Assembly (NCBI GenBank): GCA_944388045.1
Contig: CALXHG010000002.1
Span: forward strand, 905-64,904
Origin: an uncultured Clostridia bacterium
Lineage (GTDB): Bacteria; Bacillota; Clostridia; TANB77; CAG-508
Length of the DNA: 64,000 nucleotides
Reading direction: 5' to 3'
The notes beneath the pieces are model-generated. The model was not told where the DNA came from. It did no database searches and saw only the letters and a list, made by a program, of their open reading frames with translations. Shown one piece after another: positions 58,173 to 60,474 of this stretch. Numbering within the stretch: the first letter of the stretch is position 1; each line of letters opens with the position of its first letter. A program made the position numbers and the translations under genes.

Positions 58173-59561
58173 ATGAATAAGACAAACAAAAAAATAAATC
58201 CAAAAGAACAAGGAGCATTAAATGTAATAACTATTATTATTACAGTAGCAATTCTTGTATTATTATCTGGTATAACTATAGCCGCTTTAGTAGGTAATGG
58301 AGAAAATGGTATTTTAGCTAGAGCTCAGCAATCTAGGCTTATGAATGAAATTGCAATAGAAAAAGAAAAAATAGAAACTGCAGTACAAAGTACAATAGGT
58401 ACAAAATATGCTGGGAAAATTGATGGTCCAGCTTTATATAATGAACTAAAAAATAACATGAAAGAAAATATAGAATGGAACATATGTGGAACAACTAATT
58501 ATATCACTTTTGTTGATAGTGAAAGAATATATTTAGTAACAGACAGAGGAGAAGTTTTGGCATTTGAAGACCCAGATTTTGAAGTTGGAGTAATCATGTC
58601 AGAAAATACAACATATACAGACCCTGATGGACATACTGCAATAATTCCTGCTGGTTTTTGCCTAGTAAGAGGCTCTGTAAAAATATCTGATGGATTGGTT
58701 ATATCTGATGTTGCATATGATGACATATTTAATTCTGAAGGTGGAAATCAATTTGTATGGATTCCAGTAGATGGCGAAAATTTAAAATATGAAAGAGATA
58801 CCACAATTGGAAAAGATTTATCTTATAAATATTATGAATATACAGACTGGAAAGATGAAGGAGTAAACACAAGCAGTGTTTCAAAATATAAAGGATTTTA
58901 TGTAGCAAGATTTGAAGCTGGAATACCAGAAAACACAATTTTTACAAATCAAGAAAATGATAATACTTATATAGAAACAGGAAAAAATATAGGTAGTTAT
59001 ACACCTGTAAGTAAAAAAAATACAAAATCTTGGAATTTAATTAATCAAGTTAATGCTAAAGCAGTATCAGAGAGAATGTATAGGAATAGCAACTCTGTAA
59101 AAAGTTGCTTAATAGACAGTTTTGCATGGGATACTATTACAAAATGGTTATCAAATTCTGGCTATAATATTACAAACAGTACTGACTGGGGTAATTTTAT
59201 GGATTCCAAATTTGACTATTTAGGATTATGTGCAAAACATAATTACAGTGAAAATAAATGGAAAGTATCTAAAAAGTGGGAAGAAACAAATGCAATAAAC
59301 TCTGGAGAAATGACAGAAATTCCAACAGGTTCTACAGAGAGAAATTTTGCAAATAATATATATGATTTTGCAGGTAATATGTGGGAATGGACAACAGAAA
59401 ATGGAAAACATGCTGGTCCATCAAATACGTATGGAGTACTAAGAGGAGGAGGCTTTTTTACAGAAAGTGGTACAACAGCTGTAGGACAAAGAGATGGTTT
59501 AAACAGAGACATATATAGTGCTGTTAATGTTGGTTTTAGAGTTGTTCTATATTTAAAATAA
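58173..59561 (+). CDS. Pilin-like N-terminal anchor plus FGE-sulfatase (SUMF1/formylglycine-generating-enzyme-like) domain protein
   Basis: N-terminus ..ITIIITVAILVLLSGITIAALVGNGENGILARAQQSR (pseudopilin-like but lacks the G/FTLIE cleavage site). C-terminus GFYVARFEAG..NIYDFAGNMWEWT..GVLRGGGF..VGFRVVLY. Confidence 0.6.
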   Translation: MNKTNKKINPKEQGALNVITIIITVAILVLLSGITIAALVGNGENGILARAQQSRLMNEIAIEKEKIETAVQSTIGTKYAGKIDGPALYNELKNNMKENIEWNICGTTNYITFVDSERIYLVTDRGEVLAFEDPDFEVGVIMSENTTYTDPDGHTAIIPAGFCLVRGSVKISDGLVISDVAYDDIFNSEGGNQFVWIPVDGENLKYERDTTIGKDLSYKYYEYTDWKDEGVNTSSVSKYKGFYVARFEAGIPENTIFTNQENDNTYIETGKNIGSYTPVSKKNTKSWNLINQVNAKAVSERMYRNSNSVKSCLIDSFAWDTITKWLSNSGYNITNSTDWGNFMDSKFDYLGLCAKHNYSENKWKVSKKWEETNAINSGEMTEIPTGSTERNFANNIYDFAGNMWEWTTENGKHAGPSNTYGVLRGGGFFTESGTTAVGQRDGLNRDIYSAVNVGFRVVLYLK

Positions 59562-59704
59562 GTAAAAATAAATTTCTATTTTGCTTTTTACAATATAAAT
59601 TTTTTAAAACTAAGAAATAATTTGTATAATGAAGTATAAATTAAAAAAAATGAGATAAACTAATTTTTAGATATAAATTTTTATAAAAATCGTTGATTAA
59701 ACAG

Positions 59705-59733
59705 TTGCAAAAATTTAATTTATATGCTAAAAT
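59705..59733 (+). promoter_or_regulatory. Strong sigma-A promoter of the candidate ncRNA
   Basis: TTGCAA-N17-(TGC)TAAAAT. Confidence 0.6.
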
Positions 59734-59739
59734 AAATAT

Positions 59740-60023
59740 AACAAAAAGTTAATAAATATCAGCCCTGCGTAGTGCGTGTAGGCAGAATTTTTAGAACCTA
59801 CAAGTTTAAAAAGGGACCAAATCTTTGGGTATGGCGTGCAAGCTTACACTTTTGCAAATTTAAATTTAGCTTTAAGTAGTAAGAAGCCCACAAGTACTCA
59901 AGTAGGACCCACCTGTCGAAGACAGGTCCTTAAAAATTCCACTAACTTACGGCTAATGTGGGGAAACAAAATAATTCAATAACGAAGTAAGGTGAAAAAC
60001 AGTTAACTGTTTTTCACCTTTTG
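59740..60023 (+). ncRNA. Candidate structured ncRNA of unknown class (~280 nt), bounded by a promoter and a terminator
   Basis: No ORF. The local G+C is clearly above the intergenic background. Possible closing helix 59763-59782 / 59946-59963. Internal hairpins include ACCTGTC-GAAG-ACAGGT. Terminator GGTGAAAAACAG-TTAA-CTGTTTTTCACC plus TTTT (59991-60023). Confidence 0.5.
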
Positions 60024-60038
60024 CCATTCTGTTTTGTT

Positions 60039-60340
60039 GGGGGCGGTCCCTTTTTCTATTAGGGTCGGTCCCTTTTTCTATTGGGGTCGGTCCTAAATCA
60101 TACCAATATATAAAATATTTTGCAATACCGCGTAAGCGACTAAATGAGTGTAGCGAATGCGATTTGGAGCAACTTATTTATAGCAATTCTTTTGTAGGTT
60201 GCGACACACAAGTTATAAAAAATTTTTTATATATTGGTATGATTTAGGACCGACCCCAATAGAAAAAGGGACCGACCCTAGCCAAACTGCCCAAAAAGGG
60301 ACCGACCCCAATGTTATAGGACAAAAAGAGAACCGGCACT
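60039..60340. repeat. Family B composite palindrome b2: GC-cluster units plus 33-bp inverted repeats around a 109-bp core, inverted relative to b1
   Basis: IR-L 60083-60115 GGGGTCGGTCCTAAATCATACCAATATATAAAA and IR-R 60225-60257. The arms pair perfectly for ~54 bp. The core 60116-60224 is ~90% identical by eye to the reverse complement of 36794-36904. Confidence 0.85.
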
Positions 60341-60474
60341 TTTTTTCCCAACCCAAGACAAAATTATAAAGAATTTCTTAAAACTCTTTATTTTTTTATA
60401 AAAATATAATATAATGTACTCGCAACTTGTAAAATAACAAAAATAGGGATTTTTCACGAAAGGAAGTAAAAATA

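What the first reader, a model, noticed from the sequence alone, without database searches (positions are those of the whole stretch)
59705..60023. Orphan ~280-nt transcription unit with no ORF: candidate structured ncRNA
A near-consensus promoter (TTGCAA-N17-TGCTAAAAT) and a strong terminator (12-bp stem plus T-run) bracket a segment that is clearly G+C-richer than neighbouring intergenic DNA. It has no coding potential. The ends can pair: 59763 CCCTGCGTAGTGCGTGTAG with 59946 CTTACGGCTAATGTGGGG, allowing G-U pairs and bulges. This closes a ~200-nt domain that contains several local hairpins (GTAGG..CCTAC, TGCAA..TTGCA, ACCTGTC-GAAG-ACAGGT). The size and the long closing helix are compatible with a 6S-like RNA, but I cannot confirm any class.
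Basis: partly seen in the sequence, partly recalled or inferred. Interest (0 to 1): 0.6.

Follow-up and report, generated by a model that had tools for sequence, protein, structure and literature searches.

The report
Ordinary 6S RNA gene (ssrS)
The ORF-free, GC-richer transcription unit is this gut Clostridia genome's single copy of 6S RNA, a well-known small RNA that mimics an open promoter and holds back RNA polymerase, so it is a routine annotation and not a discovery.

Summary
Window 59759-59968 (+) matches Rfam RF00013 (6S/SsrS) over the whole model (1-187) at 82 bits, against a gathering score of 46.4 (E 1e-14). It is the only copy in the 1.79-Mb genome. A match is present in 17 of 18 same-genus genomes and in 11 of 12 genomes from other families of the order. 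In 26 aligned homologues, 98% of cells in the closing stem, central bubble and apical stem structure are paired, and 19 of 36 pairs carry compensatory changes. That exceeds all 500 shuffles and all slid controls. No ORF is conserved. An extended -10 promoter precedes the gene in 24 of 26 homologues. RNA-library contigs from three independent bird or chicken gut studies cover only the 6S body, while the flanking genes have zero cover. Two small local oddities exist. This copy lacks the T-run that follows the closing stem in all 25 relatives and uses a separate hairpin terminator about 20 nt downstream. Its apical stem also carries an insertion of about 25 nt. This scan has already found and resolved the same RNA as ordinary 6S on other genomes. 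RNA polymerase binding and product-RNA synthesis are inferred from homology and were not tested. Interest is low.

The parts
59705..59733 (+). Sigma-A-type promoter: -35 TTGCAA (59705-59710), 17-nt spacer, extended -10 TGcTAAAAT (59725-59733)
   Evidence: The same architecture is present in 24 of 26 homologues. The block is identical in CALYAA01 while the DNA upstream of it has diverged.
59740..59762 (+). Predicted A/T-rich 5' leader of about 20 nt. The transcription start is inferred at about 59740-59741, 7-8 nt after the -10. The leader is probably trimmed to give the mature 5' end.
   Evidence: Inferred from promoter geometry. The distance from the -10 to the closing stem varies from 4 to 59 nt among homologues. 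B. subtilis pre-6S-1 has an 11-nt leader removed by RNase J1 (PMC10578484). RNase J is encoded in this genome. The ends were not mapped.
59759..59968 (+). 6S RNA (ssrS) body, 210 nt
   Evidence: RF00013 at 82 bits against a gathering score of 46.4, model positions 1-187 of 187, E 1.3e-14. RNA contigs of X1, X2 and X4 lie inside it.
59763..59776 (+). Closing stem, 5' arm. It pairs with 59950-59963.
   Evidence: helix 1 has 12 pairs, 5 of them with compensatory changes, and 97.7% of cells are paired.
59777..59812 (+). 5' strand of the central bubble. It holds the near-invariant block at 59788-59802. C59801 is the predicted template position for the start of product RNA.
   Evidence: T30, T32-34, A37-C40 and A42-A44 of the first sequence are invariant in 26 homologues. 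In the cmscan alignment this block aligns to the consensus CCCCuGAgCCgAa block. The start site is inferred by analogy, not shown.
59813..59909 (+). Internal and apical stem-loop arm. It includes an insertion of about 25 nt near the apical loop (about 59850-59880) that is shared only with G003 and G004.
   Evidence: Helices 2-6 have 14 of 19 pairs with compensatory changes. The insertion is visible in alignment A1. The extra hairpin alone is no more stable than shuffles (z = -0.02).
59911..59927 (+). Small hairpin in the 3' strand of the central bubble (ACCUGU-CGAAG-ACAGGU)
   Evidence: Present in all 26 homologues. The pairs are mostly invariant and one varies among U-G, U-A and C-G.
59950..59963 (+). 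Closing stem, 3' arm
59969..59988 (+). A-rich 3' spacer between the 6S body and the terminator. It stands where all 25 relatives have a T-run.
   Evidence: 2 T in the first 12 nt here against 6-10 T in every relative. The spacer has diverged in CALYAA01. The X4 RNA contig reaches 59975.
59989..60022 (+). Stand-alone intrinsic terminator: 14-bp stem with a TTAA loop, or a 12-bp stem followed by TTTT
   Evidence: -18.7 kcal/mol, z = -6.0. One compensatory G-C to U-A change against CALYAA01. Within the 286-nt predicted primary transcript it folds independently of the 6S body.

Best explanation
Window 59759-59968 (+) is the genome's single canonical 6S RNA gene (ssrS). It is transcribed from its own extended -10 sigma-A promoter at 59705-59733 and ended by the hairpin at 59989-60022. 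The primary transcript is predicted to be about 285 nt and is probably trimmed to a rod of about 205-210 nt. By homology, the rod consists of a closing stem, a large central bubble and an apical stem, and it mimics an open promoter. It occupies the active site of the housekeeping RNA polymerase holoenzyme when growth slows and so dampens sigma-A transcription. On nutrient upshift the polymerase would use the conserved 5' bubble strand as a template. The predicted start is opposite C59801, which gives a GTP-initiated product RNA beginning 5'-GUAGGUUC. That short product RNA would refold 6S and release the enzyme. What is shown here: family membership, structure with covariation, conservation, single copy, the independent transcription unit, and presence in RNA libraries. 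What is inferred: the exact 5' and 3' ends, processing, polymerase binding, and product-RNA synthesis with its start site.
For: There is a full-length RF00013 hit at 82 bits against a gathering score of 46.4. It is the only hit in the genome. It is found in 17 of 18 same-genus genomes and 11 of 12 same-order genomes from other families. In 26 homologues 98% of cells are paired, 19 of 36 pairs have changes on both sides, 0 of 500 shuffles reach these values, and slid controls give 38-48% paired. The 5' bubble block is invariant, including the C at the predicted template start. The promoter is conserved in 24 of 26 homologues. The footprint against CALYAA01 shows an identical promoter, 2 differences in 210 nt of 6S, a compensatory change in the terminator, and diverged flanks. 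RNA-library contigs from three studies lie inside the 6S body, with 0-1 mismatches and zero cover on the flanking genes: X1 59784-59936, X2 59774-59936, X4 59785-59975. No ORF is conserved. For the mechanism in model organisms see PMC3299989, PMC3753640 and PMC10578484.
Against: Nothing contradicts the assignment. There are caveats. The RNA evidence consists of assembled contigs, which cannot give ends, strand or abundance. The single-sequence fold is only modestly better than shuffles (z = -2.05). The 3' end differs from that of all 25 relatives. Polymerase binding and product RNA were not observed. The mapping of the template start relies on my recollection of the E. coli and B. subtilis start sites applied to the cmscan alignment.
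Confidence: 0.96

Rival explanations
1. It is a 5' leader or riboswitch-type cis-regulator of the downstream PBP1A gene (60475-63078).
For: It is on the same strand as PBP1A and upstream of it. The terminator T-run is short, so some read-through is conceivable.
Against: About 450 nt, including a mobile repeat element, separate it from PBP1A. PBP1A has its own conserved upstream block in CALYAA01. None of the 25 homologues from the sampled genomes has PBP1A within 1.5 kb. No riboswitch or leader family matches even at E <= 1. The 6S model fits over its full length.
Confidence: 0.01
2. It encodes a small protein: the 35-aa ORF at 59772-59879 or the 48-aa ORF at 59836-59982.
For: These ORFs exist, and a 35-aa GTG-started ORF recurs in a few very close homologues.
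Against: The ORFs start with GTG or TTG and no ribosome-binding site was seen on reading the sequence upstream of them. Three homologues have no ORF of 25 aa or more, and the others have unrelated ones. The substitution pattern preserves base pairs, and the indels are not constrained to multiples of three.
Confidence: 0.01
3. It is a 6S-derived RNA with altered function. The lineage-specific loss of the 3' T-run, the retained 3' trailer and terminator hairpin, and the apical insertion would make it behave differently from canonical 6S, for example with different stability or decay, as seen for B. subtilis 6S-2.
For: It is the only one of 26 homologues without the T-run. The separate terminator is conserved with a compensatory change in CALYAA01. 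The apical insertion is shared with only two other genomes. B. subtilis 6S-2 carries a putative terminator hairpin that takes part in its decay (PMC10578484).
Against: The core that defines function is intact and nearly invariant: the closing stem, both bubble strands and the internal stem. Apical regions and ends are the known variable parts of 6S RNAs. The RNA contigs end at or before 59975, short of the terminator hairpin.
Confidence: 0.02

Closest known systems
Rfam RF00013, 6S / SsrS RNA
   Same: It matches the covariance model over its full length, well above the gathering score. It has the closing stem, central bubble and apical stem architecture, the conserved 5' bubble template block, and the ACCCACCUG block on the 3' side.
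   Different: At 210 nt it is longer than the 187-position model because of a 27-nt insertion at the apical loop. It has no T-run directly after the closing stem.
Bacillus subtilis 6S-1 RNA (bsrA)
   Same: It is a Firmicute-type 6S with its own sigma-A promoter and a short single-stranded 5' leader. In B. subtilis that leader is 11 nt and is removed by RNase J1 (PMC10578484), and RNase J is encoded here. The predicted product RNA starts with G opposite an invariant C, as for 6S-1 C40 (PMC3753640).
   Different: This genome has one 6S gene, not two paralogues. The leader is predicted to be about 20 nt. The neighbouring genes differ and vary within the genus. Nothing has been tested experimentally.
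Bacillus subtilis 6S-2 RNA (bsrB)
   Same: Like 6S-2, which is described with a putative terminator hairpin (PMC10578484), this gene has a discrete terminator hairpin 3' of the closing stem.
   Different: 6S-2 product RNA starts with ATP (PMC3753640), whereas a G start is predicted here. No paralogue relationship was shown.

Membership tests
6S RNA (Rfam RF00013) | Covariance-model score at or above the curated gathering score over the full model | tested here: met
   82 bits against 46.4, model positions 1-187 of 187, E 1.3e-14 for the 64-kb window.
6S RNA (Rfam RF00013) | Rod-shaped fold with a long closing stem, a large asymmetric central bubble and an internal or apical stem | tested here: met
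   Seen in the cmscan structure line, the MFE fold and the RNAalifold consensus of 26 homologues.
6S RNA (Rfam RF00013) | Structure maintained by compensatory substitutions in relatives | tested here: met
   19 of 36 pairs have changes on both sides, 98% of cells are paired, 0 of 500 shuffles reach these values, and slid controls give 38-48%.
6S RNA (Rfam RF00013) | Independent, widely conserved gene present in one copy per genome, or a few | tested here: met
   One hit in its own genome. Hits in 29 of 31 genomes of the genus and order, counting G000. It has its own promoter and terminator.
6S RNA (Rfam RF00013) | Accumulates as a stable small RNA | tested here: inconclusive
   Contigs from RNA libraries of three studies cover only 59774-59975 with 0-1 mismatches, and the flanking genes have zero cover. 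Contigs cannot show strand, ends or abundance.
6S RNA (Rfam RF00013) | Template site in the 5' bubble strand for product-RNA synthesis | tested here: inconclusive
   The invariant block includes C59801, which aligns to the consensus template region. No product RNA was observed, and the start site is inferred by analogy (PMC3753640).
6S RNA (Rfam RF00013) | Binds the housekeeping sigma RNA polymerase holoenzyme and inhibits transcription | not testable with these tools
   This needs a gel shift or co-purification.
Riboswitch or cis-regulatory leader | Match to a curated cis-regulatory family and conserved linkage to a downstream gene | tested here: not met
   No such family matches at E <= 1 in 59500-60480. 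The downstream genes are not conserved among the homologues.

The most novel reading that the evidence does not exclude
In this species-level lineage the 6S gene has lost the U-tract that directly follows the closing stem in every other sampled relative, and it has acquired a separate downstream terminator and an enlarged apical stem. The RNA might therefore be made as a longer form of about 265-285 nt with different processing or decay from canonical 6S.
Probability: 0.25. Interest if true: 0.15.

Novelty: already known. Interest (0 to 1): 0.08.

Why it matters
It matters little beyond annotation. The call adds the ssrS gene to an uncultured, very low-GC gut Clostridia genome and shows that the family model works for this lineage. 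It also removes this stretch from the list of unexplained structured RNAs. The alignment of 26 homologues gives a clean covariation data set for 6S in this order. The altered 3' end is a minor curiosity about 6S transcription termination and maturation.

Tried and rejected
(1) A permissive Rfam scan of 59500-60480 at E <= 1 gave only 6S for the finding. The plant miRNA-precursor hits at 60047-60301 are all far below their gathering scores and only reflect the long perfect inverted repeat of the neighbouring repeat element.

(2) The consensus terminator scan did not call the 59989-60020 hairpin on the + strand because only 4 T follow it. It called the hairpin on the - strand with a poor tail. 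I accept it as the + strand terminator on the basis of the fold statistics and the compensatory change.

(3) Synteny: tblastn with the two flanking proteins against the 25 homologous loci (±1.5 kb) found nothing, so gene context adds no support.

(4) Small-ORF reading: rejected.

(5) The apical insertion folded alone is no more stable than shuffles (z = -0.02), so I make no structural claim for it.

(6) The X12 run mainly carries a 92%-identical relative and many copies of the repeat element, so its depth over 60029-60287 cannot be interpreted for this locus.

(7) Sequencing-run shares of 0.2-0.39 are read only together with the laid contigs.

(8) One multi-sequence fold call failed on a length limit and one paper look-up failed on a term format. 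Both were repeated correctly.

Full report
OBSERVATION. The stretch was read directly. A -35 TTGCAA (59705-59710), a 17-nt spacer and an extended -10 TGcTAAAAT (59725-59733) are present. The promoter scan lists them at 9 of 12 matches with the TG extension, but it finds 6 such sites in this AT-rich region against 4.9 expected, so the site is not significant by itself. The hairpin at 59989-60020 is real. It can be read as a 14-bp stem with a TTAA loop, or as a 12-bp stem followed by TTTT. It folds at -18.7 kcal/mol, z = -6.0, and 0 of 200 shuffles are as stable. Because only four T follow, the consensus scan did not call it on the + strand. G+C is 0.36-0.41 across 59750-59999, against 0.10-0.15 in the spacer upstream. 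Only GTG- or TTG-started ORFs of 31-48 aa lie inside.

IDENTITY. A scan of the whole window against Rfam 15 at gathering thresholds gives exactly one hit: RF00013, 6S/SsrS RNA, at 59759-59968 on the + strand. It scores 82 bits against a gathering score of 46.4, covers model positions 1-187 of 187, and has E 1.3e-14. It also shows the 5' bubble strand, the internal and apical stem, and the conserved ACCCACCUG block on the 3' side. A 27-nt insertion sits at the apical loop. The MFE fold of the 210 nt reproduces the closing helix and the apical arm. Within the predicted 286-nt primary transcript, the 6S body and the terminator fold as separate modules (z = -3.4).

CONSERVATION AND COVARIATION. 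The window lies in a 1.79-Mb genome of 40 contigs, and 6S is found there once. Among 30 relatives, 17 of 18 same-genus genomes and 11 of 12 genomes from four other families of the order have a match. 27 of the 31 genomes, counting the window's own, score over the cut-off. One of the two genomes without a match is only 74% complete and the other is 95% complete. I aligned the 26 full-length homologues (A1). RNAalifold recovers 36 pairs, 19 of which have compensatory changes. Counting that structure gives 98.0% of cells paired, against 90.2% in shuffles and 38-48% when the partners are slid by 1-3 columns. There are 74 cells with double changes against 17.7 expected, and 0 of 500 shuffles reach any of the five measures. 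The structure was derived from the same alignment, so it has some advantage over the slid controls, but the margin is very large. The 5' bubble strand carries an invariant block (T30, T32-34, A37-C40 and A42-A44 of the window sequence). The 3' bubble has an invariant ACCCACCUG followed by a small hairpin that is present in all 26 sequences.

TRANSCRIPTION UNIT. 24 of 26 homologues have TGnTAnnnT with a TTGnnn -35 at 16-17 nt. This lies 4-59 nt upstream of the 6S match, and in one family (f5) it lies 4 nt upstream. The closest public relative is an uncultured Clostridia MAG, CALYAA01, found through a 38-nt exact word. Its footprint is clear. The -35 to -10 block is identical while the DNA upstream of it has diverged. 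The 6S body differs at 2 of 210 positions. The spacer after 6S has diverged. The terminator stem carries one compensatory G-C to U-A change. The inverted-repeat element downstream is absent. Similarity returns at the region upstream of PBP1A. With the -10 ending at 59733, the start is inferred at about 59740-59741, which gives a single-stranded A/T-rich leader of about 20 nt. In B. subtilis an 11-nt leader of pre-6S-1 is removed by RNase J1 (PMC10578484). An RNase J gene scoring 672 bits, over the cut-off, is present in this genome. Processing here is inference.

EXPRESSION. Eleven of the listed public runs are on record as RNA libraries. I laid the contigs of four runs from four studies on 59400-60500. 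In three of them the only contigs lie within the 6S body: X1 at 59784-59936 (0 mismatches, depth 48.7), X2 at 59774-59936 (0 mismatches) and X4 at 59785-59975 (1 mismatch). The upstream gene, the spacers, the repeat element and the start of PBP1A all have zero cover, which serves as the silent-stretch control. X1 is only guessed to be RNA. Contigs give no strand, ends or level. This is therefore moderate evidence that the 6S body is present as RNA in bird and chicken gut samples, and nothing more. X12 carries a 92%-identical relative that spans 59614-60022.

MECHANISM (inferred from the family). 6S RNAs bind the housekeeping holoenzyme in competition with promoters. They are released when the polymerase copies the 5' bubble strand into a short product RNA (PMC3299989, PMC8414754). 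In B. subtilis efficient synthesis needs a GTP start opposite C40 of 6S-1 (PMC3753640). In the cmscan alignment the window block 59788-59801 aligns to the consensus CCCCuGAgCCgAa block. From my own knowledge, E. coli product RNA starts at the last position of that block. That places the start opposite C59801, which is invariant in all 26 homologues. The predicted product RNA is G-initiated and begins 5'-GUAGGUUC. This is a prediction and was not tested.

DIFFERENCES FROM RELATIVES. In all 25 relatives the closing stem is followed within a few nucleotides by a T-rich run, with 6-10 T in 12 nt and a longest run of 4-8. The window has 2 T in 12 nt and instead uses the separate hairpin about 20 nt further on, as does CALYAA01. 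The window, G003 and G004 also share an insertion of about 25 nt near the apical loop. Folded alone, that insertion is no more stable than shuffles. The neighbouring genes are not conserved. Neither the FGE-domain protein nor PBP1A is found within 1.5 kb of 6S in the other 25 loci.

RIVALS. A leader or riboswitch of PBP1A, a small ORF, and a functionally altered 6S derivative were considered. The first two are rejected on context, the lack of any family match and covariation. The third remains a small possibility that only end mapping can settle.

COMPARISON AND VERDICT. This is a member of the 6S/SsrS family. It meets every feature that can be tested by computation, while polymerase binding and product-RNA synthesis remain untested. 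Any standard Rfam-based annotation would call it. This scan has already met the same RNA on other genomes, and follow-ups there also concluded ordinary 6S (notes e1-746046 and e1-1085463). I did not recheck those loci. Novelty: already known. Interest: low.

Noticed in passing
window 60039-60340: This is a long inverted-repeat element built from GC-cluster units (GGGTCGGTCCC-type) around an AT-rich core. It is a dispersed repeat, with at least 20 near-full-length copies at 75-94% identity and many units of about 55 nt across the 1.79-Mb genome. It is absent at this site in the close relative CALYAA01, so it looks like a MITE-like mobile insertion between the 6S terminator and the PBP1A promoter.
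   Followed up: partly
window 59964-60022, and L002-L026 3' flanks: The window's 6S is the only one of 26 homologues without a T-run directly after the closing stem. It and CALYAA01 use a separate hairpin terminator that shows one compensatory change between the two.
   Followed up: partly
L006 (G027), L010 (G006), L014 (G022), L008 (G030), just 3' of their 6S genes: GC-cluster units of the same kind (GGGACGGTTC, GGGCCGTCCC and GGGGCGGCG types) also sit just downstream of 6S in several relatives from other genera and families. The repeat family therefore appears widespread in the order.
   Followed up: no
window 58173-59561 and 60475-63078: The flanking genes are a pilin-like protein with an FGE/SUMF1-type C-terminus and a PBP1A with a Thr/Pro-rich repetitive tail. 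Neither is linked to 6S in the other sampled genomes.
   Followed up: partly
L005 (G023), about 40-70 nt upstream of its 6S: The first 25 nt or so of the 6S 5' arm (AAATTCCTGCGGTGTTCGAGAATAAGGC...) appear twice in tandem upstream of the G023 6S gene. This is a local partial duplication of the 5' end.
   Followed up: no
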